Of a DNA stretch of 64,000 nt, positions 1-12,191 are shown piece by piece. The DNA is from Kiritimatiellota bacterium (GTDB lineage Bacteria; Verrucomicrobiota; Lentisphaeria; Oligosphaerales; JAADHN01): positions 122,624 through 186,623 of the forward strand of contig JAADHN010000111.1 of NCBI GenBank assembly GCA_013151865.1, in the 5' to 3' direction. The position numbers and the translations under genes were made by a program. Below the pieces are notes generated by a model. It made no database searches. It saw only the letters and a program-made list of their open reading frames with translations, and was not told where the DNA came from. Every line of letters begins with the position of its first letter. Positions within the stretch are counted from its first letter, which is position 1.

Positions 1-608
1 GCCTGCAGAATTCGGTCGAAATCCCGGTGCGCAAACGGCTCGCCGCCCGAGAATGTAATTGAGAGCGTCCCCATTTCGGGCAGTTGCGCAAGCACGTCGA
101 GGGCCAGCGCCGTGTCAATCGGGCGCCCGGCGCCGCCGGGCGGGTAATAACAGTGAACGCATCGGAGGTTGCAGGCGGAGGTTACATCGATCTGCATGCC
201 GAAAACAGTGGGGCGTCGCTGAAAGTAATCGTAGAACCAGGCGGCGGAGTTCATCGGCACACCCACGGGGCCTCCGGCCGGCAGAATCACGGGAAAGTCG
301 TAAACGCGAGCGGACTTGCGAGCCAGTTCGTTCTCGTCGCGACCGGTCACGACGAATTTCTCGGCCTCCAGAATGGCGACAAACCGTTTGAAAGCAGCTT
401 CGACGTCAAAGCGGTGAATCCCCTCCAATTCCCTCGCAAGATCGTCGATGGCCGAGTCCAGGGTCCGCGGCGTGCGTGCCAAGCGTCGGAGATACGGTTG
501 CTCCGTCTCGTTGAAGAGGTGATCGACCTTGGTGCGCTGGTTCACCAGATAGGCGAAACCGTCGTAGAAGCGAGTGAACGAATCGTCATGCAGCTTTACG
601 AGAGTCAT
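1..608 (-). CDS. Radical SAM enzyme with N-terminal PqqD-like (RRE-type) peptide-binding domain; N-terminus complete, C-terminus runs off the left window edge
   Basis: Not in the supplied ORF track (no stop inside the window). Hand translation of the minus strand from ATG at 608 is open for all 202 codons: MTLVKLHDDSFTRFYDGFAYLVNQRTKVDHLFNETEQPYLRRLARTPRTLDSAIDDLARELEGIHRFDVEAAFKRFVAILEAEKFVVTG...VFGMQIDVTSACNLRCVHCYYPP...TLSITFSGGEPFAHRDF. CxxxCxxC (C146/C150/C153) and the GGEP motif are radical-SAM hallmarks. The first ~90 aa look like a PqqD/RRE domain (strands followed by three helices). Confidence 0.85.
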   Translation of the reverse strand, partial: MTLVKLHDDSFTRFYDGFAYLVNQRTKVDHLFNETEQPYLRRLARTPRTLDSAIDDLARELEGIHRFDVEAAFKRFVAILEAEKFVVTGRDENELARKSARVYDFPVILPAGGPVGVPMNSAAWFYDYFQRRPTVFGMQIDVTSACNLRCVHCYYPPGGAGRPIDTALALDVLAQLPEMGTLSITFSGGEPFAHRDFDRILQ

Positions 609-883
609 TCTTGTTCCGTTGTACTCGGGGCGCGGGGAACGCCGGCGGGAGAGGATCTCGGACTGAATCGACCGGGGCGGCTTTTCCTCTTCGTAGCCGT
701 CCCGCAGCGGGAGCGGGAGTGAAGGCTTGAACAACGGAACGCTGTCGAAAGCGCGGCGGCAAAAGACGGGAAAAGAGCGGACGTACCCGCGTCGGGCCCA
801 GACTTGCCCGAAGCCGGCGACGCGACGCCGTATTTCAGCTCAATCCTTCACATCGAGTCGGTGCGCCGGCCCATCGAACCGCG

Positions 884-899
884 AACCGGCGCACCGGTT
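884..899 (-). terminator. Stem-loop 11 nt downstream of the precursor stop codon (possible partial terminator or transcript stabiliser between precursor and rSAM gene)
   Basis: Perfect inverted repeat AACCGG-(4 nt)-CCGGTT. No adjacent U-run, so not a canonical intrinsic terminator. T-rich tracts (CTCTTTTCCCGTCTTTTG on the minus strand) follow about 100 nt further on. Confidence 0.3.
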
Positions 900-909
900 G
901 GCGGGCGGC

Positions 910-1128
910 TCATCCGCCGCCACCGCCGAAGATCGAAATGCCGCAGTTGGAACCGCCGTAAGACGCCCCGCCGCCACCGCCGCCGAAGATCGAAATGCCG
1001 CAGTTGGAACCGCCGTAAGACGCCCCGCCACCGCCGAAGATCGAGATGCCCCCGCCGCAGATGGCTTTCATCTCGTCGGCAGACACCGTAGTGTCCTCTG
1101 CCAAATCTGTGATCTTGATCCTGGCCAT
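910..1128 (-). CDS. RiPP/bacteriocin precursor peptide: double-glycine leader plus glycine-rich tandem-repeat core (72 aa)
   Basis: ATG at 1128 is preceded by AAAGGA 8 nt upstream. The supplied ORF 910..1323 is an upstream-extended version of this gene. Peptide: MARIKITDLAEDTTVSADEMKAICGG|GISIFGGGGASYGGSNCGISIFGGGGGGASYGGSNCGISIFGGGGG. Positions -12..-1 (VSADEMKAICGG) fit the double-glycine leader consensus LSxxELxxIxGG. High GC3. A C39-peptidase ABC exporter lies in the same locus. Confidence 0.85.
   Translation of the reverse strand: MARIKITDLAEDTTVSADEMKAICGGGISIFGGGGASYGGSNCGISIFGGGGGGASYGGSNCGISIFGGGGG
913..1050 (-). repeat. In-frame tandem DNA repeats encoding the precursor core (periods 57 and 51 nt)
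   Basis: 923-972 and 980-1029 are 50/50 nt identical. The third partial unit, 1031-1050, has 1 mismatch in 20 nt. The encoded units are GISIFGGGG(GG)ASYGGSNC. Confidence 0.9.
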
Positions 1129-1465
1129 GGGTCCGTTCCTTTCTGTCTTGCCGTGTCCGCACGGGGAACCACGGCGCTGCTCTGGTTCAACTCCAGCGAC
1201 GGCGTCTCGGAAATCCGGAGTCGACCGGCGCCGGCCCGACTTCAATCTCGCTTCCACGGGTCCGGTCGCACAAAAAACGCGCCGGCGCATTTCCGCCGAA
1301 ACCGAACGAATAATGTGCCGCAAGTTTCGTCTCCGGCACTTGGTGATACGTGGCGGCAGTTACTCCGTACCCGTCTTCAGTTCCGCTCGAAGTCGTGCGT
1401 CCTCTGGATGAGTCGGGACCGATTTCCACGGTCCACCCGACCGCATTTCGGTCCACCTTTCAATT

Positions 1466-1493
1466 AAAGTAACCAATTTGATCAATTTGTCAA
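1466..1493 (-). promoter_or_regulatory. Putative sigma70-type promoter for the precursor transcript
   Basis: An AT-rich patch in GC-rich DNA. The minus strand reads cTTGACAaattgatcaaattggtTACTTTaattg: a perfect -35 TTGACA (1488-1493), a 16-nt spacer, and -10 TACTTT (1466-1471, TAnnnT). The spacer contains the direct repeat CAAATTG-at-CAAATTG. Confidence 0.4.
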
Positions 1494-1592
1494 GTGCGCG
1501 CTGCCGGGAGACCGGTGTTTTCAAGCACAACGGCATCCGGCCGCACCGGCGTGATCGACCCGGTTCGACGCCGGGTGACGATCAGCGTTTTG

Positions 1593-2024
1593 TCATTCCT
1601 CTCCATCCAGTGCACCGCCGACGGCTTTGGCCAGCCAGTCCTGAAAAACCAATTCGCGGACCGTTTCCTTGACAGCCGGGGCGGCCATGTATGCCGCCGT
1701 GTCGGCCTCCGCCTCCAGCTTGTCCCGGAATTTGGAAATCAACAGGTTGGTTTCCAACCATTCTTCCCAGACCTCGGGGGTGAGACCGGAGATCTTGAGC
1801 CAAGCCATCGTGTCTTCCGCCTTGTTCAGTCCAGCCGCGGCGCGGGCCCCGTCGGCGGCCTTCTGCAACTCTTCGTCGCTGACCGACAAACCGGCTTCCT
1901 CGGCGGCGGCGCGGACCACCTTCCGTTGCACTACGTTACGCAGTGCAGTCGCGAACTGTCCGTTGATCCGCAGGCAGTTGAGCACCTCACCGACAGTGAC
2001 TTCCATCTCTTGGATTGCGGGCAT
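1593..2024 (-). CDS. SurA N-terminal-domain-like chaperone protein (143 aa), no PPIase domain, no signal peptide
   Basis: ATG at 2024 is preceded by AAGGAG 7 nt upstream. The sequence MPAIQEMEVTVGEVLNCLRINGQFATALRNVVQRKVVRAAAEEAGLSVSDEELQKAADGARAAAGLNKAEDTMAWLKISGLTPEVWEEWLE... aligns by eye with the N-terminal ~100 aa of the PpiC-type protein at 10092-10835 (shared SDEELQxAAD, TMAxL, GLT.E motifs). Confidence 0.7.
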   Translation of the reverse strand: MPAIQEMEVTVGEVLNCLRINGQFATALRNVVQRKVVRAAAEEAGLSVSDEELQKAADGARAAAGLNKAEDTMAWLKISGLTPEVWEEWLETNLLISKFRDKLEAEADTAAYMAAPAVKETVRELVFQDWLAKAVGGALDGEE

Positions 2025-2301
2025 GGTCTTTCTCCTTGATTTTGGCAAGCCCCGTGTTCCATTTGTGCTCCGGGCGGTCCGCCGGGGGCCCCACTTCGGA
2101 TCGCCGGGCCGGGAGCACAATAAAGAGCAGATCGATTACATTAATACAGTTTACGACGGTTTCACAAATTTGGCAACCCGGGACCAGAGGATTCTCTATG
2201 CCCCTCCCCGCCGGGACCGATGGATGTTGCGAACTTGTCCCGGCGGGACTGTCGCCCTCCCCCGAGTCCGAGCTTGTCCGCCGCCGTCGCACTTCCCGCC
2301 A

Positions 2302-3759
2302 CTACGGCATGAAAACACGCATCTCGCTGCGGAAATAAAAGATCCGAACAAGAACAAAAAGGTAATTGACCTGCGACCTCACATGGTTGAGCTTCGCGTT
2401 AAAATGGTCGGACTGAAACACCAACGTATCGAGCAGCAGACTGCGCCCGCCCCGGAGTCGGTCCAATTCCGCCTCCAAGTTCTTTGCGGTGATGTCCACC
2501 AGCTTCTCATCCAAGACGATTTCATCGGCAAGCCGTTTGAGTCTGACGAAGTCTTGGCTGAGCAGTTTTCGTATTTCATGTTCCCGATTCTTCTGGAGGA
2601 GCCGGTTCCGTTCCAGGGCGAGTTCGAGGGCCACGATCCGCTCTTGAATCGCCGTGTTCCCGACGGGCCAACTGAAATTCAATTCCACACCGATCAAGTA
2701 GTTCTGTGCGTCCAAGCCACTCACGGCGCGGACGGAATTGTCGTCATCGAAGCCGTAAACCGAGGCTTTCGCGGTCATGCCGAGACTTGGTCGGAGTTCG
2801 TCTCTGGCCTGCGTCAGGTCATAGAGCAATTGGTCCCCCTCGTTCCGAAGCGAGATCAACTGCTGGTCCCGCGCGCAAGCCAACCGGCAGCTCTCTTCCA
2901 ATGCGGGCATGGGCACTTGCGCTCTGATTCGTTCGAGATCGATGCGCGGCTTCACGTCGTCGAAAGCCCCGGTCGCGATTCTCGTGCGTACGGCGAATTG
3001 CAGTTGCTCAGCCAGGGTGCGAACCGCCTGCCTGCGCCTCAGGATGTCCTTCTCCTGTTCCAACACCACGGACTCAATCTTGTGCAGGTCGATGACGGGA
3101 ATGGCGTGCATTTCAAACTTTTCCTGGATGATCCGCAGGATTTCGCGCGAGTTTTTCAGGATTTCCTCGCCGATGACGAGATCTTGCCGAGCCTGGTAAA
3201 ACGCCAAATAGGCTTCCGCGACATCCCGAAGCACGGCGGATTCGATGGCCGCGCCGGTCTCCAGGTGGAAGCGCAACAGTCTGCGGGCCCGGGCGATATT
3301 CAATTCCGTGATGGTCCGCCCACGTCCTTTCAGGAGAGGTTGCGTGTAACTGATTCCCAATTCGGCTTGCGTCTCTTCGGCGCTGTCCGGAAACGAGAAA
3401 AGGCGGGAGGACTGGCGCGAAACCGTCATCCCCGCCGATGTTGTCCCACCGACCGAATTGAGTCGGTCGAGGCTCACGGTCCCGGAGTAGTTCCGCTGGT
3501 CACGGAGCCCGCTGAGCGCGAGTTCTCCATAGGTCCGACGGTCCCCGCTCACGTTTGACCGCAAGATCGGTTCGTAGATGGCCTGCTCCTCGACCAATCG
3601 GGCGGAAGCGCGTCGCACATCCAACTCCTGGACACGCAAGAGCTGATTCTCTCGCAACGCCTGTCGCAAGGCTTCGGCCAGAGAGAATTCCGGATTGCCG
3701 GCTGCTGCTTTGCCCATGAACACCGTCGCGCACGCGAAGAAAACCTGAAAACACGCCAC
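2302..3759 (-). CDS. TolC-like outer membrane efflux/channel protein (OMF); start uncertain (GTG 3759 or ATG 3717)
   Basis: Two-fold repeated coiled-coil/OEP-like sequence (LSLAEALRQALRENQLL..., TQPLLKGRGR..., LDLAQARDEL-type segments) of about 470-485 aa. Only the GTG at 3759 gives a hydrophobic N-terminus (ACFQVFFACATVFMGKAAAG). The part of ORF 2302..4212 upstream of that is Arg/Pro-rich junk. Confidence 0.8.
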   Translation of the reverse strand: MACFQVFFACATVFMGKAAAGNPEFSLAEALRQALRENQLLRVQELDVRRASARLVEEQAIYEPILRSNVSGDRRTYGELALSGLRDQRNYSGTVSLDRLNSVGGTTSAGMTVSRQSSRLFSFPDSAEETQAELGISYTQPLLKGRGRTITELNIARARRLLRFHLETGAAIESAVLRDVAEAYLAFYQARQDLVIGEEILKNSREILRIIQEKFEMHAIPVIDLHKIESVVLEQEKDILRRRQAVRTLAEQLQFAVRTRIATGAFDDVKPRIDLERIRAQVPMPALEESCRLACARDQQLISLRNEGDQLLYDLTQARDELRPSLGMTAKASVYGFDDDNSVRAVSGLDAQNYLIGVELNFSWPVGNTAIQERIVALELALERNRLLQKNREHEIRKLLSQDFVRLKRLADEIVLDEKLVDITAKNLEAELDRLRGGRSLLLDTLVFQSDHFNAKLNHVRSQVNYLFVLVRIFYFRSEMRVFMP

Positions 3760-4982
3760 GCGCCCGAATGCAGAAACGATGAACGGGAAAGGAGCCCTTG
3801 CGATACGAAGTGCGGTACGACAAACAACGAAAGACGGCGGAGTGCGGCGACCGTTCGAGGGGACAAACGGCAGGCGGCAGAGGCAGGAACAGCCCCGCCC
3901 GGAGAGAGCCGCGGACAGCGAACGGGGACACGCCGAATCTGAAGGACTTGCGCCTCCGACCCCGCCGTTTCTTTCCCCTGGGGCGCCGAAAGCGACGGTC
4001 GTCGCCAAGCCCCGACCGGGGCCGGTTAATCTGTCCGTGGCGTGCGTCATGAGGCGTCGGTTGGGTTCGGTGTCGGACTGGACGCAACCGGGCGTCCCTG
4101 CGGGTTCCGCGCCCCAGTGGGAACGGAGTACGCCTGATCGGTGGCATCCGGAAAATACTGGTGGCATTTGCGGAATACAAGGAACCCAACGCAAGTTCGA
4201 GCAACCGCACAATCCGATGGGGCAGGCCCCCCGTGAGGTCCGTCCGTCTCCAGGCCCGCTGTCGCGCCGTTTTGCACGAACGGTGTTCCCCGGCGCCGGG
4301 GGGGACGCGCCGTCAGCGACGCGTTACAAGTTCGAGTCCCTCGCATGCGCTGCGTACCTGGAGACCAAATTTGCATGAAGCATGAGCCATCTGCGCCAAT
4401 GCCGCTTTCAGACACCTTCAAGACATTGCTGCCGCCGCTGGCCGGGGCGGTGTTTCGATACGACCTCCTCCGGCGTTCGACGCAATGAGCCGGACTCGCA
4501 CAAACTGCGCTCCCTTGCAACGAAGTCCGTGAATGAATGAGACCCGACCCTTCTTATCTGAGACCGCAGGGCCCCCGCGAGCCTTTCGACAGAGTGGCCG
4601 TCCCATCGCGGGAGATGCGCCGGCGGGCATGTTCCAGCGCGGAAACCGCAGGCCTGCCGTCACACAGCAGCTGCCCGACGGTCTCGCCGCCCCGCGCTTT
4701 TGGAAGGGGGCGCGATCACTTGAATTCCGTCCGAAATGCAGCATACTTGAAAGTGCGGGGTCGGGGGTCGTATGCAGGCCGAATTCACCCCGCTCAGGTG
4801 CGAGCCATCTGGGTCGATGACCGGGCCGTAAAGACCGGAAAAGCAGCCGGGACCGTTTTTCGAGTCATGCAACAACTTGCCCGTGCGAAGGTTGCCTGCA
4901 CCCAGAACCGGCCCCTTCCAGGCTGCGAACGGGAACGTGCGGCACGAACTTGCAACCAGGTGTTAGAGCACACTGTTTTTTC

Positions 4983-7900
4983 ATGCAACACGCTGACCTG
5001 CTGTCTTTCATATCGGACCTCCCTCTCTTCTCGATCTACGATGAAGAGCGACTTGCCGCGTTCTTGGAGCAGATGTCCCTTGTCTCGTACAGCGCCGGGG
5101 AGGTGGTGTTCGAACAAGGCGATGCGGGGGACACTTTCTATGTGGTGTACAGCGGCCGCATCCGCATCCTCATGCGCCGGAACGGCAGCGATGTAAACCT
5201 CGGCGTCCTGCGCAAAGGCGACCACTTCGGCGAGTCTGCTCTCATCACCGACCACCCCCGCACTGCGACGGCTCGCGCTGTGGAAGACAGCGTGCTGCTT
5301 GTGGTCTCGCGCGAAGATTTCACCACCTTCCTTTTGGCGGAACCGGCACATCGCGACTACTTCGACAAGTTGATGCGCAGTGCGGCGATCGATCGGTTCC
5401 TCAAATCCACCTCGACCCTGGGGAAAGTGGGGCGCAACGAGGTGGCGGAACTGGTCCGGTGCTTCAAGCCGCAAACCTTTGGCGAAGGCGAGGCCGTATT
5501 TCGGCAGGGCTCAGTCGCCGACAAATTCTATCTGGTCGAAAGCGGGAAGCTCAAAGTCGTGCGCTGGACGGATCAAGAGCACGAAATCTTGAATTTCCTG
5601 CGCGAGGGCGACTTCTTCGGAGAGAAAGCCCTCGTGGAAGACACGACCCGGTACGCGGACGTGATCTGTCTGACGCCCTGCAAATTGTTTGCGATGCACA
5701 AAGACGACTTTGACGCGCTGATCCAGAAATCGCCGAAGCTGCGCCGTATCATCCAAGACCGCATCGAATCCTACAAAACCCCTCCTCCCATCCCCTATAA
5801 GGAGGTCATCAAGCAGGAGCTTGCCGCCCTGAAGGAGACGAAGGTGACGGCGGGGGAAGACGCCGAAAAGGCCGTGCGAGAGGACCGCGGCGCGGCGCAG
5901 AAAACCGCCCGTCGCCGTCGTTCCCGCAAGCCCGCCCGTCGGTTCCCTTTCATCCGGCAGTACGACGAGATGACGTGCGGCACCACCTGCCTTATGATGA
6001 TCTCCAGGTTCTATGGCAAGAACTTTGCCTCGGCCCGGTTGCGGGAACTGGCGCACGTGGACGTGAGCGGCGCATCGCTGGCGAACCTGGCGACGGCGGC
6101 CGAGCAACTGGGGTACACCACACGCGCCCTGAAACTGAAATACGACGGGCTTCGTTCCGTCCCGCTTCCCTGCATCGTGCACTGGCAAGGGTATCACTAC
6201 ATCGTGGTGCATAAAGTGTCGGACCGATACGTGTGGGTTGCGGACCCCGCAATCGGCTTGCGCAAGTACGACCGGGAGCACTTCGAAAAGAATTGGAGCG
6301 GCATCACCCTGACCCTGACCCCTACCGCCTCGCTGGAGGAACAGACTGACGACCGGTCTTCGCTGCGCAACTTCCTGCGGTTCGTTACCCCCCACCGGAA
6401 AACGTTGATTGAAGTCCTCATTGCTTCGGTACTGCTGAATATCTTCGGCCTGGCTACGCCCATCTTCACCCAGAATGTCGTGGATAAAGTGCTGACCCAC
6501 AACAATACATCTATGCTGAACATGCTGTTCATCGGCATGTTGCTGGTTTTGTTCTTCCGAATCATGGTCATGTTCGTGCGCCAGTACCTGATCGTCCACA
6601 TCAGCATGCAGATTGATCTGAAGATGCTCGTGGCATTCTACCGGCACATGCTCGCATTGCCGCTGGGATACTTTAAAGCTCGGAAGGTGGGTGATTTCGT
6701 CTCGCGATTCGGGGAAAACCAGAAGATTCGCGCCTTCATGACCCACACTGCCCTGAGTCTTATGTTGGACGTGGTCTTACTGGTGGTATACCTCGGAATG
6801 ATGTTTTACTACAACACCAAGATGGCCGCGTTGACGATGGTCTTCATCCCATTCGTCGCGGCAGTCACCCTGGTCTTCACGCCGATCCTCCGTCGACTCA
6901 ACATCGACGCCTTTCAAGCTCATGCGGAGGCCGATTCGCACTTGATCGAATCCATCACGGGCATCGACACGATCAAAGCCCTGCACGCCGAATCGCCTGT
7001 GCGTTGGAAGTGGGAAGACAAGTACATTCGCAGCATGAACATCGACTTCAAGCTGACCAATGCAGGCATGATGTTCAGTGCCTTCGGCGATCTGGTCGGC
7101 ACGCTCAGTGCGACCGTTCTGCTCTGGTTCGGTGCGCATCAAGTCATGGCGGGGGCCCTCACCGTCGGTGAACTGATGGCTTTCATGGCCCTGATGGGCA
7201 GTGTAATGGTCCCGGTCAACCGTGTGATCGGCGCCTGGGACGACATTCAGCAGACGCTGGTTTCAGTCGACCGCCTCAACGACGTTTTCAGCGCCAAGCG
7301 TGAGTTCGCCGACGCGGACGCCGGCCACAGCGGGGTCCCCCTGGAGGACGTGCCGTGCACAATCGAATTCAAGGACGTGTTTTTCCGTTATGGCGGCAAC
7401 GACGATCCATATATTCTCTCCAAGATCAACTTGAAACTCCCGGCGGGCAAATCCCTGGCCTTGGTCGGACGCAGCGGCTCGGGAAAAAGTACATTGGTCA
7501 AGCTGTTGGCACGTTTCTGGGACGTCACTGAAGGGCAGATTCTCATCAACGGCGTCAATGTTCGACATATCGATTTGAACTGCCTGCGGCGCATGATCGG
7601 ATTTGTATTGCAGGAGACCTTCATCTTCAACGGAACGGTTCGGGAGAACATTGCCTACGGCGAGCCGGAAATGGATTTCAGCCGAGTATTGCGAGCGGCG
7701 AAGATGGCCAATGCCCACGACTTCGTCACCACATTGCCCTTTGGCTACGACACGCGTGTCGGGGAAAGCGGCGTGCAACTGTCCGGCGGGCAAAAACAAC
7801 GCATCGGGATCGCCCGGGCACTGTATGCCGAACCCAGGGTCCTGGTCTTCGACGAAGCGACCAGTTCCCTCGATTCCGAGTCGGAGCAGGCCATTCAGAA

Positions 7901-8087
7901 GAATATGCAAGGCATTCTTGCGGACAAAACCTCCATCATCATAGCTCACCGTCTCAGCACAGTCCGGGATGCCGATGTGATCGCCGTACTGGACAATGGC
8001 GAGGTCGTCGAACAGGGCTCCCACACTGAATTGATGGAAAGCAAGGGCCTCTATCACTTCTTGGTGCACCAGCAGTTGAATCTGTGA
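4983..8087 (+). CDS. Bacteriocin-type ABC exporter: 2x cyclic-nucleotide-binding domain + C39 cysteine peptidase + TMD + NBD (1034 aa)
   Basis: cNMP phosphate-binding cassettes FGESALITDHPRTATARA and FGEKALVEDTTRYADVIC. C39 motifs QYDEMTCGTTC (Cys codon 5976-5978), HYIVVHK and ADPA. Six-helix TMD region. Walker A GRSGSGKST, signature LSGGQKQR, Walker B VLVFDEATSSLD, H-loop IIIAHRLS. ATG 4983 is chosen because the domain begins directly after it; no clear SD. Confidence 0.9.
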   Translation: MQHADLLSFISDLPLFSIYDEERLAAFLEQMSLVSYSAGEVVFEQGDAGDTFYVVYSGRIRILMRRNGSDVNLGVLRKGDHFGESALITDHPRTATARAVEDSVLLVVSREDFTTFLLAEPAHRDYFDKLMRSAAIDRFLKSTSTLGKVGRNEVAELVRCFKPQTFGEGEAVFRQGSVADKFYLVESGKLKVVRWTDQEHEILNFLREGDFFGEKALVEDTTRYADVICLTPCKLFAMHKDDFDALIQKSPKLRRIIQDRIESYKTPPPIPYKEVIKQELAALKETKVTAGEDAEKAVREDRGAAQKTARRRRSRKPARRFPFIRQYDEMTCGTTCLMMISRFYGKNFASARLRELAHVDVSGASLANLATAAEQLGYTTRALKLKYDGLRSVPLPCIVHWQGYHYIVVHKVSDRYVWVADPAIGLRKYDREHFEKNWSGITLTLTPTASLEEQTDDRSSLRNFLRFVTPHRKTLIEVLIASVLLNIFGLATPIFTQNVVDKVLTHNNTSMLNMLFIGMLLVLFFRIMVMFVRQYLIVHISMQIDLKMLVAFYRHMLALPLGYFKARKVGDFVSRFGENQKIRAFMTHTALSLMLDVVLLVVYLGMMFYYNTKMAALTMVFIPFVAAVTLVFTPILRRLNIDAFQAHAEADSHLIESITGIDTIKALHAESPVRWKWEDKYIRSMNIDFKLTNAGMMFSAFGDLVGTLSATVLLWFGAHQVMAGALTVGELMAFMALMGSVMVPVNRVIGAWDDIQQTLVSVDRLNDVFSAKREFADADAGHSGVPLEDVPCTIEFKDVFFRYGGNDDPYILSKINLKLPAGKSLALVGRSGSGKSTLVKLLARFWDVTEGQILINGVNVRHIDLNCLRRMIGFVLQETFIFNGTVRENIAYGEPEMDFSRVLRAAKMANAHDFVTTLPFGYDTRVGESGVQLSGGQKQRIGIARALYAEPRVLVFDEATSSLDSESEQAIQKNMQGILADKTSIIIAHRLSTVRDADVIAVLDNGEVVEQGSHTELMESKGLYHFLVHQQLNL

Positions 8088-8173
8088 GAAAAAGCCGCCC
8101 TGAAGAGGGGCGGCGCCTGCGGACGGAAGTTCCTTTCCTTCCGTGTCGGCTCAAACGAGAGGTACGTCGGTTC

Positions 8174-9523
8174 ATGCCGCCGGAGAAGAACACGACAAAT
8201 GACTCGCCGGAAGCTGCGGATGCGGGCATTTCCGAGGAAATGTCGTCGGAAAGTTTCTTGGTTACCGAGCAACTTCAGCGGGTTCCGAACCTGGTTGCAC
8301 GCGGGTTGATCTATATCGTGTCCCTTCTCGTGGTAACGATCCTGCTCTACACCCACTTTGTCCGGATCGACATTCTTTCCAGAGGGCAGGCAGTCGCTCG
8401 ACCCACGGCGCACAAGGTTCGAATTCTCGCCGACCGCCGGGGCTATGTCGACCGTGTGTTGGTGAAAGAAGGACAGCGAGTGGCTGCCGGCGACGCGCTT
8501 TTCGCGATCCGGTCCCGGGCGAACATTGACCGCGAAGCGCGCTACGCCGAACTGAAGATCACGATCCCGCTGAAAGAAGCTCACTTCAAACAGCGCCGGG
8601 CCCTAACGGCGGAGAAACTCCGAACCCTGCAGAATTCTTCCGCTTATCGCCGGAAGGTCCTCGCCTTGCGGAAAGAAAAGAACGCACTCGCCCGCGCCCG
8701 CGCCGAAATCGATATCCGTTATTGGACGCAACAGGTCGAAACGCTCGCCGAAAGCCTTGCCCGAGCCAGGAGCATGTTCGAAAAGAACATCACGACCCTG
8801 GAAGACTACAACGCCGCAAAGGGACGGCTCGAACACGCCAAGGCGCAACGGGATAAGTCGTCCAATGAACGCCAAACGTATCTGAAAGAAGCCGAGATCA
8901 TCGAAGCCGAAATCAAGGAGGAAGAAGCCAACCTTTCGAGTCAAACCGAAATCGTCCGGGGCGAAGGCCGCAGCATTGAGCTGGAGGCGCAAAGCACGTT
9001 GACAGCCATGCGCAACGAGATGAAGCTTTGCGAGGACATACTCTCGGTCCAGTCCCCCATCGGGACCACGGCCACGAAGCCGGAGGGCGTACTGACAATG
9101 ATCCGAACCGCAACGCCGGGCGCCATTTCGGAGTTGTTTGTCCGCGCCCCCGGTGCCTACGTGCGAGACGGCGACCTGTTGTGCACCGTGGTTCCGGCCG
9201 GCAGTCCCTTGTACATGGACATCGTCCTGGCCAATAAGGACATTGGTTTTATTACCGAGGGGATGCCGGTCAAGTTCAGGTTCGATGCATTCTCCTACAG
9301 AGACTACGGGGCGCTCGCGGGGCGGGTCGAATCCATCTCTCCGTCCGCCGTGGAAGACCCGACCATGGGGTTGGTGTACCACGTACGAGGCGTGCTCGAT
9401 CAACCCGGCTTCAAGATCGATGGAAAACTGTACCGGGTTAAACCCGGAATGACCGCCACAGCAGAACTCGTGACCGAACAAAGGACCTTGTTTTCTATTC
9501 TTGTCAGCAAACTCCGCAGGTGA
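8174..9523 (+). CDS. HlyD-family membrane fusion/adaptor protein of the exporter
   Basis: N-terminal TM helix (LIYIVSLLVVTILLY), lipoyl-like hairpin motifs (GYVDRVLVKEGQRVAAGDALF ... GAYVRDGDLLCTVVP), long coiled-coil middle, beta-barrel C-terminus. Immediately downstream of the ABC gene. GAGAGG lies upstream of ATG 8174. Confidence 0.85.
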   Translation: MPPEKNTTNDSPEAADAGISEEMSSESFLVTEQLQRVPNLVARGLIYIVSLLVVTILLYTHFVRIDILSRGQAVARPTAHKVRILADRRGYVDRVLVKEGQRVAAGDALFAIRSRANIDREARYAELKITIPLKEAHFKQRRALTAEKLRTLQNSSAYRRKVLALRKEKNALARARAEIDIRYWTQQVETLAESLARARSMFEKNITTLEDYNAAKGRLEHAKAQRDKSSNERQTYLKEAEIIEAEIKEEEANLSSQTEIVRGEGRSIELEAQSTLTAMRNEMKLCEDILSVQSPIGTTATKPEGVLTMIRTATPGAISELFVRAPGAYVRDGDLLCTVVPAGSPLYMDIVLANKDIGFITEGMPVKFRFDAFSYRDYGALAGRVESISPSAVEDPTMGLVYHVRGVLDQPGFKIDGKLYRVKPGMTATAELVTEQRTLFSILVSKLRR

Positions 9524-10091
9524 TCCCGAAAGGATCCCCAACAAGGCCGGGACGCTTCCCGACGGAACCGCCGCCGTTTTCCTGCACGACGCTGCAGTTG
9601 TCCCGCGACAACCTGAGCCGAAACACCAGGCACGCCAATTGTGGGACACGGCCCGACACCCCCGGCGGTGTCGGGAGAGTGATGTCGAGTTTTTATGCGC
9701 CTTGCACACTCCCCGCACAAGAGAACCACGTTTCTCGGCTCGCCCGGATGCACGCCCGCGGAAGCAGCCATATATTGAGCGTTGCGAAAGTTCCGTCGAA
9801 AACTGGCACAACTGGCCCCTTGATGGACGTCGACCGGGAAAAGACGTCGTGGAACGCGGCCGACCAACGCCCCGCAGCCGCAAGAACGGACTGCTTTGCG
9901 AACCGGCCCCAGGGCGCGGTCGAGCTGCCCGTGCGAAGACACCCCCTCCCATTCGGCCGCGTTCCGTCGAGGCGGAAGCAGCAGGACACAGACCGCTCAG
10001 GATTGTCGCGGCGATTGTGCGGAAGGCGCGGGTATCGCCCGTGCCCAGCTTGTTTCGAGGTGATCGGCCCCCCAACACCGGGAGATAAGTG

Positions 10092-10835
10092 ATGGAATTC
10101 AAGTATGCCCGTGGAAGCGTTACCAGCGAGGATCTCATTGGGTTGCTGGTGTTCTCGGGGCGGATGGACGCCTTGCTGAAAGAGGCCATCGAGAGGCGCG
10201 AAGTGCGGCGCAAGGCAATGGAATTGGACATCCGGGCGAGCGACGAGGAACTTCAGGCAGCCGCGGACCGGCTCCGGAAAGAGCTTGGTTTGGTCCGAGC
10301 GGACGTGACCATGGCTTTCCTTACCGGCTTCGGGCTCACGGTCGAGGACCTGCAGGAGTACTGCGAGTTCGAGGCGTTGCGGGAAAAGGTCCGGGAACGT
10401 CTGACGCCGGAAGCCAAGATCAACGAGTATTTTCTGAATTACCGTGCCGATTTCGACCGTGCCACCATCTCGATCATTACCGTCGACAGCGAGGAACTCG
10501 CCCGAGAGTTGATCATGCGGGTCGTGGAAGACGGCGAAGATTTCCACGAATTGGCGAGTGAGTATTCACTTGATGAAGGGACCCGCGAAAACGGCGGAAG
10601 GGTCGGCGCCGTCCCACGAAGCGCTTATTCGCCGGAAGTGAGCGCCAAAATATTCAACGCAGACCCGGGTGACGTGGTCGGACCGTTCTCGTTGGGCGAC
10701 CGCTCCCTTCTGATCTTGGTCGAGAAGGTGGAAAAAGGCGGGCTGACCGACGAAGCGAGGACCGCGGTCCGGGATCGGATTTATCAGGATTGGCTCCATG
10801 CATTCCTGCGCGCCGGGATCTCCGTCGCGTCCTGA
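10092..10835 (+). CDS. PpiC/parvulin-type peptidyl-prolyl isomerase with SurA_N-like N-terminal domain, no signal peptide
   Basis: GGAG lies 7 nt upstream of ATG 10092. The C-terminal half (ISIITVDSEELARELIMRVVEDGEDFHELASEYSLDEGTRENGGRVGAVPRSAYSPEVSAKIFNADPGDVVGPFSLGDRSLLILVEKV) has the rotamase/parvulin pattern. The N-terminal half is paralogous to the 1593-2024 product. Confidence 0.8.
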   Translation: MEFKYARGSVTSEDLIGLLVFSGRMDALLKEAIERREVRRKAMELDIRASDEELQAAADRLRKELGLVRADVTMAFLTGFGLTVEDLQEYCEFEALREKVRERLTPEAKINEYFLNYRADFDRATISIITVDSEELARELIMRVVEDGEDFHELASEYSLDEGTRENGGRVGAVPRSAYSPEVSAKIFNADPGDVVGPFSLGDRSLLILVEKVEKGGLTDEARTAVRDRIYQDWLHAFLRAGISVAS

Positions 10836-11095: not shown

Positions 11096-11326
11096 ATGGC
11101 AAGAATCAAGTTTGAAGATTTGGAGGAAGTCACGGCGACAAAGGCAAAGATCAACCTTGGCGGCCTGCTTCACGAGACAGCCGTGAACGGACGCCAATTC
11201 GTTGTCAATCGGCAGGGCAAACCGGTGTCGGTAATCCTCAGCTACAACGACTACCGCGACCTGCTGGCTGAGCTGGAGCGGTTGCGCCGAATACGAGGAC
11301 CCGACACGCTCCCATCTCTTCGGTAA
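11096..11326 (+). CDS. Phd/YefM-family antitoxin-like protein (76 aa), no adjacent toxin gene
   Basis: GAGGAAG SD. VTATKAKINLGGLLHETAVNGRQFVVNRQGKPVSVILSYNDYRDLLAELE matches the Phd/YefM N-terminal fold pattern (compare YefM [47 protein letters not shown]). Confidence 0.7.
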   Translation: MARIKFEDLEEVTATKAKINLGGLLHETAVNGRQFVVNRQGKPVSVILSYNDYRDLLAELERLRRIRGPDTLPSLR

Positions 11327-11626
11327 AGCAACGACTCGGGACGCCGCCCCCCGGCCAAGCCGCCGGTCCCATATCCTATTCTCGGATGCCGGCCAAGAAC
11401 ACACGCCGAGGCGCGCACATGGAACATGCGCATGGGGCGACTTGTGAGTCTCGTGCGATCGACGTTTCGGTTCGCCCGCCGAGAGGCACGGCCCTCCCGC
11501 ACCGCGGGATCGCCCGCCACGGGCGAACGAATGACCGGACTGTGCGTTCGTCACGGAAATACGCGCGCCCGAGCGGGCATGGGTGAGTCCTGAAGTTTAT
11601 TTGTGAACACAAAAGGCACCTCGACG

Positions 11627-12133
11627 ATGACCGAGAACGGCGTTCGACCCGAGCGACATCGCCCGGCCTGGAACGAGTATTTCCTCAAGTTGGCTATGCT
11701 CGCCTCGGAGCGGGCCACCTGCCCGCGCATGCACTGCGGCTGCGTGCTGGTCCGCGACCGCTTCGTCCTGGCAACGGGATACAACGGCTCATTGCCCGGA
11801 GCACCTCACTGTGACGAGGTCGGTTGCATGGTCGTCAACGGACACTGCGTCCGCACGAACCACGCGGAGATCAACGCCATCTGTCAAGCCACACGTCACG
11901 GTGTGATCCTGACCGGCGCCACTGCGTACGTGACCAACATGCCCTGCACGGCCTGCGCCAAGGCCCTGATCGCCGCCGGAATCGAGCGGGTCATCGTGTT
12001 CTCCGAGTATCACGATACACTTGCAGAACGCTTTTTTAAGGAATCCGGCGTGCTCTTGGAACGTCTCCCGATGCCCGACCGGGAAATTCACTACGATTTG
12101 GACGCTTTTGCGTCTGCCGCCCCGCCTGTCTGA
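11627..12133 (+). CDS. dCMP/CMP deaminase (ComEB-like zinc deaminase)
   Basis: Zinc-binding motifs HAEINAI and PCTACAKAL. The WNEYFLKLAMLASERATC N-terminus is typical of dCMP deaminases. Confidence 0.85.
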   Translation: MTENGVRPERHRPAWNEYFLKLAMLASERATCPRMHCGCVLVRDRFVLATGYNGSLPGAPHCDEVGCMVVNGHCVRTNHAEINAICQATRHGVILTGATAYVTNMPCTACAKALIAAGIERVIVFSEYHDTLAERFFKESGVLLERLPMPDREIHYDLDAFASAAPPV

Positions 12134-12191
12134 GTTTTCGGCCGGCTCGGGGGGCACCCGACCGGCCCCGTCGAGGGACCACGGAGGTCTG

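What the first reader, a model, noticed from the sequence alone, without database searches (positions are those of the whole stretch)
1..10835. Candidate novel RiPP system: rSAM/RRE maturase + Gly-rich repeat precursor + cytoplasmic SurA-like pair + dedicated C39-ABC/HlyD/TolC exporter
Seen: two divergent gene sets lie within 10.8 kb. On the minus strand the order is TolC-like channel (2302-3759), SurA_N-like 143-aa protein (1593-2024), 72-aa precursor (910-1128), then a radical SAM enzyme with a PqqD-like N-domain (608 to beyond the left edge). On the plus strand the order is an ABC exporter with two cNMP-binding domains and a C39 protease domain (4983-8087), a HlyD adaptor (8174-9523), then a parvulin PPIase with a SurA_N-like N-domain (10092-10835). 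Established: C39-ABC exporters cleave double-glycine leaders concomitantly with export, PqqD-like RRE domains fused to rSAM enzymes bind RiPP leaders, and ABC+MFP+OMF together span both membranes. Inference: the precursor is modified by the rSAM enzyme, cleaved after Gly-Gly and secreted. I do not recognise this full combination as a characterised RiPP class. I recall only a computationally defined 'rSAM-associated glycine-rich repeat' pairing, and C39/HlyD/SurA-type bacteriocin loci, both from cyanobacteria. These memories should be checked against this locus.
Basis: partly seen in the sequence, partly recalled or inferred. Interest (0 to 1): 0.9.

Follow-up and report, generated by a model that had tools for sequence, protein, structure and literature searches.

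The report
Glycine-rich peptide maturation-and-export gene cluster
This is a real but uncharacterised bacterial gene cluster that most likely makes a small glycine-rich peptide, chemically cross-links it with a radical-SAM enzyme, cuts off its leader and pumps it out of the cell. It is one member of a large, apparently undescribed family of secreted-peptide loci that share one leader sequence.

Summary
The 72-aa ORF has a textbook double-glycine leader. Its 46-aa core is 48% Gly and carries a repeated motif, GSNCGISIFGGGG.

The truncated radical-SAM gene belongs to a populated but uncurated family of about 487 aa (RRE + rSAM + SPASM). A 54%-identical homologue again sits directly downstream of a related CGIS-motif precursor in an independent metagenome contig, so the pair is conserved.

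The leader (MARIKIKDLPKDxKISxEEMKKvxGG) defines a much larger family: 76 metagenome loci, 163 precursor genes, hypervariable cores. The canonical cassette is [TolC]–cNMP/C39/ABC–HlyD–PrsA-like protein–SurA_N protein–Phd-like protein–precursor(s). Different loci add LanM, B12-rSAM, SPASM-rSAM, YcaO or glycosyltransferase maturases.

The window therefore holds a rearranged copy of a shared export and chaperone platform with an rSAM/CGIS plug-in. It is not the GRRM system (TIGR04260/04261).

The exporter architecture matches cyanobacterial group I/II bacteriocin clusters. The SurA-like proteins have a 2026 experimental precedent as RiPP partner proteins (MirC).

The chemistry is unknown. Thioether cross-linking at Cys is my best guess. 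Verdict: a new variant of a known kind, of moderately high interest.

The parts
1..608 (-). 5' part (202 codons) of a radical-SAM peptide maturase. It has an N-terminal RRE/PqqD-like domain (about residues 1-100), then the CX3CX2C motif (CNLRCVHC). The gene runs off the left edge of the window; the SPASM domain is expected beyond it.
   Evidence: Translation. Radical_SAM 4e-10. Family of about 487-aa RRE + rSAM + SPASM proteins. AF2 model with Foldseek hits to SuiB, TbiB1 and PqqD. 54% identical to the L003 gene that follows a CGIS precursor.
910..1128 (-). 72-aa precursor. The 26-aa double-glycine leader is MARIKITDLAEDTTVSADEMKAICGG. The 46-aa core is 48% Gly, with two GASYGGSNCGISIFGGGG(G) repeats plus a leader-proximal CGG|GISIFGGGG copy.
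   Evidence: Related peptides P0005-P0009 share the leader and the (S/N)CGIS(I/Y/V)xGxG motif.
777..790 (-). Weak terminator-like hairpin between the precursor and the rSAM gene. It could be an attenuator that sets the precursor-to-enzyme ratio.
   Evidence: Consensus scan only. Low confidence.
1593..2024 (-). 143-aa cytoplasmic stand-alone SurA_N-type chaperone-domain protein, a candidate leader-binding or partner protein.
   Evidence: SurA_N_3 5e-6 and TIGR04500 1.9e-14, below cut-off. Homologues at 45-56% identity in 19 loci, usually directly upstream of the Phd-like gene and precursors. The same domain is fused to an RRE-less rSAM/SPASM enzyme in L018. No signal peptide.
2302..3759 (-). 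TolC-family outer-membrane channel.
   Evidence: OEP 5e-22 and TIGR01844 4.7e-14. 29% identical to the homologue at the head of the cassette in L027. Hydrophobic N-terminus.
3760..4982 (.). 1.2-kb divergent intergenic region between the two operons. It presumably holds the promoters and regulatory sites.
   Evidence: No Pfam-positive ORF and no Rfam hit. The function is inferred.
4983..8087 (+). 'Long-type' peptidase-containing ABC transporter (PCAT): two cNMP-binding domains, C39 protease, TMD and NBD.
   Evidence: PCAT1 (4ry2) scores 494 bits over residues 318-1028. Catalytic Q/C/H/D and ATPase motifs are intact. 62-66% identical to homologues in 7 loci.
8174..9523 (+). HlyD-family membrane-fusion protein.
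   Evidence: TIGR01843 8.8e-44 and HlyD_3. One TM segment near residue 40. Homologues in 8 loci.
10092..10835 (+). 247-aa cytoplasmic PrsA/SurA-like protein: a SurA_N-type chaperone domain plus a parvulin domain that lacks both catalytic histidines.
   Evidence: Rotamase 1e-10 and TIGR04500 4.9e-22, below cut-off. PrsA 5htf 2e-8. Alignment with PpiC shows ISIITV and LLILVE in place of LHILV and YHIIKV, in all 6 cassette homologues.
11096..11326 (+). 76-aa Phd/YefM-type protein with no toxin partner. Its first 9-11 residues (MARIKFEDLEE) copy the start of the precursor leader. Probably the regulator of the system.
   Evidence: phd_fam 7e-9. Homologues in 24 loci, within 600 nt of a precursor in 19 of 76 loci. 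The leader profile hits them (E about 3e-3 among 9,701 ORFs; hhalign P = 2.5e-6 over 11 columns). Alignments.

Best explanation
The locus is a biosynthesis-and-export system for a radical-SAM-modified, ribosomally made peptide (a RiPP, or modified microcin-like bacteriocin).

**Proposed pathway**
- Step 1 (inferred): the 72-aa precursor is made with a bipartite leader.
  - The N-terminal strand-like segment (MARIKIxDL) is the recognition sequence for the maturase's RRE and/or the SurA_N-type chaperone proteins.
  - The C-terminal amphipathic segment ending in Gly-Gly is the PCAT signal.
- Step 2 (inferred from conserved pairing; chemistry unknown): the RRE-rSAM-SPASM enzyme modifies the repeated GSNCGIS(I/Y)(F/N)GxG motifs. 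The most likely reaction is a Cys-derived thioether (sactionine or ranthionine-type) cross-link in each repeat.
- Step 3 (inferred, with an experimental precedent in MirC): the two cytoplasmic SurA-like proteins act as non-catalytic partner or holding chaperones for the maturase and/or the very Gly-rich substrate.
- Step 4 (established for the protein families): the C39 domain cuts after G25-G26, and the ABC/HlyD/TolC complex exports the 46-aa core across both membranes. The two cNMP-type domains gate the transporter in response to a nucleotide ligand.
- Step 5 (inferred): the toxin-less Phd-like protein regulates transcription.

**Platform and plug-in**
The exporter, the chaperones, the Phd-like protein and the leader form a platform shared by many loci. 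The rSAM enzyme and the CGIS core are one plug-in module on it.
For: - **Genes intact:** all domains and catalytic motifs are present.
- **Leader:** it fits the LSxxELxxIxGG consensus, and it is the only such ORF in the window.
- **Conserved rSAM-precursor pairing:** in L003/L001 the precursor P0008, with two GSNCGISYNG repeats, is followed 122 nt later by a 54%-identical rSAM.
- **Other CGIS precursors:** two others with downstream sequence are also followed at once by an rSAM gene. In L005 its best partial matches are thioether-forming maturases (SCIFF, PapB, GggB, CcpM). In L007 only a 55-aa fragment with a CX3CX2C motif is held.
- **RRE:** it is supported by family Pfam hits, and by the AF2 model with its Foldseek matches.
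- **Exporter cassette next to same-leader peptides:** seen in L013, L024, L027, L029, L031, L039, L062 and L086. Four of the 8 loci with at least 6 kb upstream carry it.
- **SurA_N domain fusion:** L018 has this domain fused to an RRE-less rSAM/SPASM enzyme right after a precursor.
- **Partner-protein precedent:** the TIGR04500 protein MirC is an essential, co-purifying partner of a RiPP maturase in a PCAT-containing cluster (PMC13097080).
- **Long-type PCAT precedents:** long-type PCAT + HlyD + SurA clusters occur in cyanobacteria (PMC3140520). HetC's cNMP domain binds ppGpp in vitro and is required in vivo (PMC10986499).
Against: - No modification has been observed. The rSAM gene is truncated by the window edge, so its intactness and its left neighbours are unknown.
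- The closest full-length relative (P0010) is paired with a Nif11-leader precursor whose core has no Cys. Bacteroidales and Kiritimatiellota relatives pair with unrelated short Cys peptides plus an Amidohydro_2 protein. The clade's chemistry therefore cannot be read from homology and need not involve Cys.
- One Cys lies in the leader at position -3 (AICGG|G). It cannot be cross-linked to the core if the leader is to be released.
- The rSAM is separated from the precursor by 300 nt and a weak terminator-like hairpin.
- Most loci of the leader family have no rSAM of this type.
- The partner-protein role of the SurA-like pair and the regulatory role of the Phd-like protein rest on context only.
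Confidence: 0.68

Rival explanations
1. The peptide is an unmodified class II microcin-like bacteriocin, or a biofilm/matrix peptide of the EbfG type. It is simply cleaved and exported by the PCAT/HlyD/TolC system, and the neighbouring rSAM serves another substrate or is inactive.
For: - Gly-rich peptides with a GG leader, exported by PCAT + MFP + TolC, are the architecture of colicin V-type microcins (established knowledge).
- Most loci of this leader family lack this rSAM. Some cores look like unmodified helical or amyloid-like peptides.
- Long-type PCATs export non-antibiotic GG-motif proteins in cyanobacteria (PMC4997328, abstract).
Against: - The same rSAM family follows a CGIS precursor in an independent contig.
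- All three CGIS-precursor contexts that have downstream sequence carry an rSAM gene immediately downstream.
- The enzyme has an RRE, the hallmark of leader-dependent peptide maturases.
- No other precursor-like ORF exists in the window.
Confidence: 0.1
2. The rSAM does modify the core, but not through Cys thioethers. It might form C-C or C-O cyclophane links from Phe/Tyr, epimerise residues, or modify Ile/Ser within the invariant G-I-S.
For: - The closest full-length relative (P0010) sits next to a Cys-free Nif11-type core rich in Lys, Gly, Pro and aromatic residues.
- The best structural match is SuiB, a Lys-Trp C-C cross-linker, although this mostly reflects the shared RRE + rSAM architecture.
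- G-I-S is conserved as strictly as Cys.
- Every repeat has an aromatic or hydrophobic residue after GIS.
Against: - Cys is invariant in every repeat of six divergent precursors.
- The rSAM that follows the CGIS peptide in L005 is most similar to thioether-forming maturases.
- SPASM enzymes acting on Cys-containing repeats usually form thioethers (established knowledge, for example PapB).
Confidence: 0.2
3. The locus is a member of Haft's GRRM system: the 'rSAM-associated Gly-rich repeat protein' TIGR04260 paired with the rSAM TIGR04261.
For: Only a superficial resemblance: a Gly-rich repeat peptide next to an rSAM/SPASM enzyme.
Against: - The precursor hits no NCBIfam model at E <= 0.01.
- TIGR04261 is not among the 25 best-scoring families for either sequence. 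For the rSAM fragment the highest score is 39.6 bits; for its 389-aa homologue it is 88 bits. All scores are far below the cut-offs.
- No family member reaches any curated cut-off.
Confidence: 0.02

Closest known systems
Cyanobacterial group I/II bacteriocin gene clusters (Wang, Fewer & Sivonen 2011, PMC3140520)
   Same: They share the 'long-type' ABC transporter with an N-terminal CAP_ED/cNMP domain and a C39 peptidase, together with HlyD, a rotamase-domain 'SurA' protein and double-glycine precursors. Group II adds modification enzymes.
   Different: - The leader family differs: it is not NHLP, Nif11 or HetP-like.
- There is a second, stand-alone SurA_N protein.
- There is a Phd-like gene.
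- TolC is encoded in the locus.
- The maturase is an RRE-rSAM-SPASM enzyme.
- The source is non-cyanobacterial, about 60% GC; relatives come from sediment metagenomes.
Rosaritide (mir) cluster: MirC, a TIGR04500 SurA-like partner protein, with a PCAT (Carter et al. 2026, PMC13097080)
   Same: A cytoplasmic protein annotated as a PpiC/SurA-like PPIase sits in a RiPP cluster with a PCAT. Experimentally it is an essential, co-purifying partner or chaperone of the maturase, not an isomerase. Both SurA-like proteins of the window match the chaperone part of TIGR04500.
   Different: - The maturase there is an ATP-grasp ligase, not an rSAM.
- MirC has its own RRE-like N-domain; here the RRE is on the rSAM.
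- The window proteins score below the TIGR04500 cut-off (53.7 and 78.6 bits against 180).
- Here there are two paralogues.
RRE-dependent rSAM/SPASM RiPP maturases (sactipeptides, ranthipeptides, streptide: CteB, AlbA, PapB, SuiB)
   Same: The architecture is the same: an N-terminal RRE, a CX3CX2C radical-SAM core and, in homologues, a C-terminal SPASM domain. The enzyme is encoded next to a precursor with repeated short motifs, as PapB acts on six CX3D repeats.
   Different: - No curated family is matched above its cut-off.
- The substrate motif GSNCGIS(I/Y)xGxG is new.
- The chemistry is unknown.
Class II microcins (colicin V / CvaAB-TolC)
   Same: A Gly-rich core of about 45-90 aa, a double-glycine leader, and export with cleavage by PCAT + HlyD-type MFP + TolC in a Gram-negative cell (established knowledge).
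   Different: - There is no sequence similarity.
- Microcin V is not rSAM-modified.
- Microcin loci lack cNMP domains, SurA-like proteins and Phd-like proteins.
- No immunity gene is identified here.
NHLP/Nif11 leader families with a shared transport cassette (Haft 2010, as cited in PMC3140520)
   Same: One strongly conserved leader is shared by many paralogous precursors with hypervariable cores. These are served by different maturase classes and a common PCAT/HlyD export cassette. The start of the leader also resembles part of a real protein.
   Different: - The leader is short (26 aa).
- It resembles only the N-terminal 9-11 residues of a Phd-like protein.
- The transport cassette is different, and it adds chaperones.
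HetC and PteB (cyanobacterial long-type PCATs)
   Same: HetC is a PCAT with an N-terminal cNMP-type domain. That domain is required in vivo and binds ppGpp in vitro (PMC10986499). Four GG-motif EbfG proteins are needed for Synechococcus biofilm formation (PMC4997328 abstract). That PteB is their long-type PCAT exporter is from my recollection, not checked here.
   Different: Their substrates are developmental or biofilm proteins, and no maturase is involved.

Membership tests
Peptidase-containing ABC transporter (PCAT; TIGR01193 bacteriocin_ABC) | The whole protein scores above the curated cut-off, with the domain order C39, TMD, NBD. | tested here: met
   530.5 bits against a cut-off of 523.85. 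Pfam finds C39, ABC_membrane and ABC_tran. PCAT1 (4ry2) aligns over residues 318-1028.
Peptidase-containing ABC transporter (PCAT) | Catalytic Gln/Cys/His/Asp of the C39 domain and the ATPase motifs are present. | tested here: met
   Q326, C332, H405, D421, Walker A GRSGSGKS and LSGGQ.
Double-glycine leader peptide | The leader matches LSxxELxxIxGG, ends about 15-30 residues from the N-terminus, and is encoded near a PCAT. | tested here: met
   VSADEMKAICGG at residues 15-26. Weak similarity of family members to TIGR04149 and NF047798 leaders.
RRE-dependent radical-SAM/SPASM RiPP maturase | CX3CX2C radical-SAM motif. | tested here: met
   CNLRCVHC; Radical_SAM 4e-10.
RRE-dependent radical-SAM/SPASM RiPP maturase | N-terminal PqqD-like RiPP recognition element. 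| tested here: met
   Not found by Pfam on the window sequence. However, 21 of 40 homologues hit PF05402, and the AF2 model matches TbiB1, lasso B1, SuiB and PqqD.
RRE-dependent radical-SAM/SPASM RiPP maturase | C-terminal SPASM domain with auxiliary Fe-S clusters. | not testable with these tools
   The gene is cut by the window edge. 40 of 40 full-length homologues have SPASM. The L003 homologue shows the start of the domain.
Sactipeptide / ranthipeptide | A thioether from Cys sulfur to the alpha carbon (sacti) or to the beta/gamma carbon (ranthi) of another residue. | not testable with these tools
   This needs MS/NMR of the product. The only evidence is indirect: an invariant Cys in each repeat, and thioether-type rSAM neighbours of related precursors.
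GRRM system (TIGR04260 Gly-rich repeat protein + TIGR04261 rSAM) | The precursor matches TIGR04260 and the enzyme matches TIGR04261 above their cut-offs. | tested here: not met
   No NCBIfam hit for the precursor. TIGR04261 is absent from the 25 best-scoring families for the enzyme and its 389-aa homologue.
TIGR04500 'putative peptide maturation system protein' (MirC-like) | Score above the 180-bit cut-off, with an RRE-like N-domain plus a SurA-like chaperone domain. | tested here: not met
   53.7 and 78.6 bits; only profile positions 95-196 and 115-327 of 340 are matched. The proteins are related through the chaperone domain but are not members.
Active parvulin PPIase | The two conserved catalytic histidines (His8 and His84 of E. 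coli PpiC). | tested here: not met
   Alignment shows Ile and Leu at these positions in the window protein and 5 cassette homologues.
Type II toxin-antitoxin system (Phd/YefM-Doc/YoeB) | The antitoxin gene is adjacent to a cognate toxin gene. | tested here: not met
   The Phd domain is present, but the next gene is a dCMP deaminase. In other loci the next gene is a precursor.
Cyanobacterial group I/II bacteriocin cluster architecture (Wang 2011) | Long-type (CAP_ED + C39) ABC transporter, HlyD, a rotamase 'SurA' protein and GG precursors in one locus. | tested here: met
   This is an architectural match only; the organism is not shown to be a cyanobacterium.

The most novel reading that the evidence does not exclude
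The window samples a previously undescribed, widespread RiPP 'platform' of bacteria whose relatives were recovered from sediment metagenomes. It is defined by the MARIKIKDL double-glycine leader.

- **Scaffold:** dedicated cytoplasmic SurA_N/PrsA-like proteins (catalytically dead parvulin) act as the leader-docking scaffold between interchangeable maturases and a nucleotide-gated PCAT. At least six maturase classes are seen.
- **Docking tag:** the 9-11-residue N-terminal strand of the leader serves as a portable docking tag. It is also carried by the system's Phd-like regulator and, as a GG-less tail, by some maturases.
- **Feedback:** the shared tag would couple transcription and enzyme recruitment to how fully the chaperone is occupied.
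- **Product:** within this platform, the CGIS-repeat peptide and its rSAM would give a structurally new class of Gly-rich, cross-linked peptide.
Probability: 0.3. Interest if true: 0.8.

Novelty: new variant of a known kind. Interest (0 to 1): 0.6.

Why it matters
- **A testable precursor-enzyme pair.** The locus offers a new substrate motif, GSNCGIS(I/Y)xGxG, in a core that is nearly half glycine. The enzyme belongs to an uncurated RRE-rSAM-SPASM clade with hundreds of members, including gut Bacteroidales. Solving one member would annotate many.
- **A new leader family.** The locus led to a leader family comparable in logic to NHLP/Nif11: 136 distinct peptides in 76 loci, next to LanM, B12-rSAM, SPASM-rSAM, YcaO and glycosyltransferase enzymes. 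I found no curated model for it and no mention in the searchable literature.
- **A second context for SurA-like partner proteins.** Partner-protein dependence on SurA-like chaperone-domain proteins was shown experimentally only in 2026, for one graspetide. This system provides a different setting, plus a natural domain fusion, to test whether such proteins are general leader-handling modules.
- **A possible regulatory or recruitment principle.** The leader-like N-terminus on a Phd-type protein and on maturase tails could be tested directly with peptide-binding assays.

Tried and rejected
**Extending the window leftwards**
- An exact 60-mer from the window start found nothing in genome contigs or metagenome contigs.
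- Exact-protein look-ups of the precursor, the SurA_N protein and the Phd-like protein found nothing.
- The source contig is therefore not in these collections, and the rest of the rSAM gene and its left neighbours could not be read.

**Searches that gave little**
- A word-index search with the 202-aa rSAM fragment gave only 4 weak hits. The exhaustive HMMER search was needed to find the family.
- A scan of GTDB species genomes with the rSAM alignment used only two N-terminal patterns and confirmed nothing.
- The first AF2 run with a 2-sequence alignment was unusable, with pLDDT 40.7.

**Family and literature checks**
- GRRM membership is rejected.
- A Pfam PqqD hit on the window sequence was sought and not obtained.
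- No paper contains the leader strings, and none was found that links Phd/YefM proteins to RiPP leaders, or this rSAM + Amidohydro_2 arrangement to a named system.

**Other negatives in the window**
- The intergenic ORFs at 3779-4744, 9400-10092 and 1187-1456 have no Pfam domains.
- There are no Rfam elements in the locus.
- No repeats are notable apart from the 57-nt core repeat.
- I considered a classical toxin-antitoxin pair for the Phd-like gene and rejected it, because there is no toxin gene.

Full report
**1. Observation**

On the minus strand:
- A TolC-family gene at 2302-3759 (Pfam OEP 5e-22).
- A 143-aa SurA_N-type protein at 1593-2024. SurA_N_3 scores 5e-6, and TIGR04500 scores 1.9e-14, below its cut-off.
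- A 72-aa ORF at 910-1128.
- A radical-SAM gene that starts at 608 and runs off the left edge. It contains CNLRCVHC, and Radical_SAM scores 4e-10.

On the plus strand:
- A 1034-aa transporter at 4983-8087 with two cNMP_binding domains, Peptidase_C39, ABC_membrane and ABC_tran. TIGR01193 scores 530.5 bits, above its cut-off of 523.85.
- A HlyD adaptor at 8174-9523.
- A 247-aa rotamase-domain protein at 10092-10835.

Further checks on these genes:
- The C39 Gln/Cys/His/Asp residues and the ATPase motifs are intact.
- HlyD has one membrane segment, and TolC has a hydrophobic N-terminus.
- Neither SurA-like protein has a signal-like segment, so both are cytoplasmic.
- The transporter aligns with the solved PCAT1 over residues 318-1028.

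The 72-aa ORF:
- It has a Shine-Dalgarno-like GAAAGGA upstream.
- Its leader ends VSADEMKAICGG.
- Its 46-aa core has 22 Gly.
- The core is built from a 57-nt tandem repeat whose copies are 96% identical.
- It is the only double-glycine-leader ORF in the 64 kb window.

**2. The radical-SAM enzyme**

Pfam does not see PqqD in the N-terminal 100 residues, even at E = 10. No NCBIfam model comes near its cut-off. A word-index search found almost nothing.

An exhaustive HMMER search of 1.84 billion representatives found 94 proteins with E < 1e-10. Most are 460-495 aa long and align from residue 1. Forty of them were scanned:
- All 40 have Radical_SAM + SPASM, and 21 hit PqqD.
- None reaches a curated NCBIfam cut-off. 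The best match is about 1e-39, to AhbD/NirJ2-type models.

With a 46-sequence alignment, AlphaFold2 gave pLDDT 84.9, with residues 1-100 above 90. Foldseek against the PDB returned SuiB, the TbiB1-leader complex (TM 0.84, rmsd 2.4 Å), lasso-peptide B1, CteB and PqqD.

The enzyme is therefore an RRE + rSAM (+ SPASM, inferred) peptide maturase from a populated but uncurated clade. The window fragment is 36-41% identical to its nearest full-length relatives.

**3. Is the precursor-enzyme pair conserved?**

A search with the precursor found five related peptides, P0005-P0009. They share the leader MARIKIxDL...EMKAvCGG and a core motif (S/N)CGIS(I/Y/V)xGxG in one to four copies.

- On contigs L003/L001, P0008 has two GSNCGISYNG repeats. 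It is followed 122 nt later by a gene whose product is 54% identical to the window enzyme from the first residue.
- Two other CGIS peptides are also followed directly by an rSAM gene. In L005 its best partial matches are the SCIFF, PapB, GggB and CcpM thioether-forming maturases. In L007 only a 55-aa fragment with a CX3CX2C motif is held.

So every CGIS precursor with readable downstream sequence is paired with an rSAM.

**4. The leader defines a much larger system**

Scanning JGI metagenomes with the precursor alignment returned 76 loci. They hold 163 precursor genes and 136 distinct peptides, with up to 8 per locus. The leader is nearly invariant (MARIKIKDLPKDxKISxEEMKKvxGG) and the cores are hypervariable.

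BLAST of the window proteins against all ORFs of these loci shows a conserved cassette: [TolC]-cNMP/C39/ABC-HlyD-PrsA-like protein-SurA_N protein-Phd-like protein-precursor(s).
- It is complete or partial in L013, L024, L027, L029, L031, L039, L062 and L086.
- The transporter is 62-66% identical, HlyD about 40%, the PrsA-like protein 40-45%, and the SurA_N protein 45-56%.
- Of the 8 loci with at least 6 kb upstream of the first precursor, 4 carry the cassette.

Next to the precursors lie very different maturases:
- LanM-like enzymes.
- B12-binding rSAM enzymes.
- SPASM rSAM enzymes.
- YcaO enzymes.
- GT2-TPR glycosyltransferases.
- A short-chain dehydrogenase.

The window is thus a rearranged copy of this platform. 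TolC-SurA_N-precursor-rSAM lies on one strand, and ABC-HlyD-PrsA-like-Phd-like lies on the other. The rSAM/CGIS pair is one rare plug-in.

No NCBIfam model covers the leader. Only 14 of 48 members hit Bacteroidetes-type GG-leader models, and weakly. No paper in the library contains the leader strings.

**5. The SurA-like pair**

The 247-aa protein resembles PrsA foldases, with a chaperone domain plus a parvulin domain. Aligned with E. coli PpiC, both catalytic histidines are replaced: ISIITV for LHILV, and LLILVE for YHIIKV. The same holds in five cassette homologues. I infer a non-catalytic role.

The 143-aa protein is the chaperone domain alone.

Two observations suggest what these proteins do:
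- In L018, an RRE-less rSAM/SPASM enzyme immediately downstream of a precursor carries a C-terminal SurA_N domain. That domain is 43% identical to the window protein.
- Carter et al. 2026 showed that MirC, a TIGR04500 protein annotated as a PPIase with a SurA-like chaperone domain, is essential for graspetide formation. It co-purifies with the synthetase, and its cluster also contains a PCAT (PMC13097080).

Both window proteins match the chaperone part of TIGR04500, below its cut-off. I therefore read them as partner or holding chaperones. This is an inference.

**6. The Phd-like protein**

A 76-aa Phd/YefM-domain protein at 11096-11326 follows the PrsA-like gene and has no toxin partner.

- Homologues occur in 24 loci, within 600 nt of a precursor in 19 of 76 loci. 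Among the 39 loci with at least 1 kb upstream, 14 have one.
- All carry an N-terminal extension, (M)AKIKIKDLEP, in front of the Phd domain. This copies the start of the leader.
- In the window the two genes share 27 of the first 33 coding nucleotides, but no upstream sequence.
- The leader HMM picks out the Phd-like proteins as its best non-precursor hits: about 16 bits, E about 3e-3 among 9,701 ORFs.
- hhalign gives P = 2.5e-6 over 11 columns.
- MAFFT aligns the whole leader to the first 23 residues with one 3-residue gap.

Whether this reflects common descent (as for NHLP/Nif11 leaders) or a shared binding epitope is open.

**7. Mechanism**

I propose a bipartite leader.
- The alternating hydrophobic/charged pattern RIKIKDL suits a beta-strand that docks onto an RRE or chaperone domain. 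This is inferred.
- The ISxEEMKxvxGG part is the PCAT signal. This is established for the family.

The remaining steps are:
- The rSAM modifies the CGIS repeats.
- The C39 domain cuts after G26.
- ABC/HlyD/TolC export the core.
- The cNMP-type domains gate transport. In HetC this domain binds ppGpp in vitro and is required in vivo (PMC10986499).

My best guess for the chemistry is one Cys thioether per repeat. The reasons are the invariant Cys, the SPASM-type enzyme, and the thioether-type rSAM next to a related CGIS peptide.

The guess is weak for two reasons:
- The closest full-length relative, P0010, neighbours a Nif11-leader precursor with a Cys-free core.
- The abundant Bacteroidales/Kiritimatiellota relatives pair with unrelated peptides (MKKQYKKPxVVAKxQPxGSYVAGCP...CxxCER) and an Amidohydro_2 protein.

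**8. Comparison with known systems, and novelty**

- The export architecture equals the cyanobacterial group I/II clusters: long-type CAP_ED + C39 transporter, HlyD and SurA (PMC3140520).
- The overall logic equals that of class II microcins plus an RRE-rSAM maturase.

The new elements are:
- The leader family.
- The CGIS substrate motif and its enzyme subclade.
- The second chaperone-domain protein.
- The Phd-like component with its leader-like N-terminus.

None of these changes the kind of system. I rate it a new variant of a known kind, with interest 0.6.

**9. Limits**

- The source contig could not be found in any collection. The rSAM gene is therefore incomplete, its left neighbours are unknown, and the organism is unidentified.
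- No chemistry, binding or regulation has been tested.

Noticed in passing
window 11096-11326 (+); L010 116-301, L013 1938-2141, L039 6066-6299 and 6742-6930, and others: A toxin-less Phd/YefM-type protein is conserved next to the precursors. Its N-terminal extension (MAKIKIKDLEP; MARIKFEDLEE in the window) copies the first 9-11 residues of the precursor leader. In L039 Phd-like genes and precursor genes alternate.
   Followed up: partly
L035 4261-6402, L051 916-3039, L042 1-1692, L060 463-1854 (B12-rSAM); L035 6644-8005, L045 2243-3604 (GT2-TPR): Several maturase ORFs end in a leader-like segment that lacks the Gly-Gly site (for example ...MKRTKMHDLPRDKKIGKEELHKAMEIKRD). The segment lies just before the next precursor gene. 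It may be a natural leader carried in cis.
   Followed up: no
L018 10391-11662: An rSAM + SPASM enzyme without an N-terminal RRE carries a C-terminal SurA_N_3 domain. It lies directly downstream of a MARIKI-leader precursor. This is a domain fusion that links the SurA_N module to maturase function.
   Followed up: partly
L087 558-3194, L090 3354-6223, L093 516-2911: Relatives of the window rSAM in a Kiritimatiellota MAG, in Bacteroidales-like contigs and in a Logan contig form a conserved trio. It consists of a 41-44-aa peptide (MKKQYKKPxVVAKxQPxGSYVAGCP...CxxCER), the rSAM, and an Amidohydro_2 protein. None of the three has an NCBIfam model. One member, P0218, is seen on 191 contigs.
   Followed up: partly
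L088 1248-4181: The closest full-length relative of the window rSAM (P0010) lies between a SAM-dependent methyltransferase and a Nif11-leader precursor. That precursor's core has no cysteine.
   Followed up: no
window 1051-1059 (codons for C24-G25-G26) and the same position in P0005-P0007: In 4 of the 6 CGIS-type precursors the leader ends in CGG|GISI(F/L)GGG. The cleavage site therefore sits inside an imperfect copy of the CGIS motif, which puts a Cys at position -3. It is unclear whether this Cys is modified.
   Followed up: no
L018 5784-5987, L030 2343-2531 and 8423-8725, L085 50-262, L086 6421-6636: A second, longer leader subtype (MARIKIKDLNVSLEELKKKDPQILKKIRGG) carries Cys-rich cores. 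In L086 and L030 it lies next to LanM-like genes whose LanC-like domain precedes the DUF4135 region in the ORF.
   Followed up: no
window 3760-4982: The divergent intergenic region between the TolC gene and the ABC gene is unusually long, at 1.2 kb. It has no Pfam-positive ORF and no Rfam match. In L027 the two genes are adjacent.
   Followed up: partly
L001 1663-4931: In L001 a resolvase and Tn3-family transposase genes lie immediately upstream of the CGIS precursor-rSAM pair. This suggests the module can be mobile.
   Followed up: no
window 11603-12133 (+) and 12021-14405 (+): Downstream of the system lie a ComEB-like dCMP deaminase and a 794-aa ORF with right-handed beta-helix and Chlamydia-PMP-type repeats. 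They are probably unrelated to the cluster.
   Followed up: no
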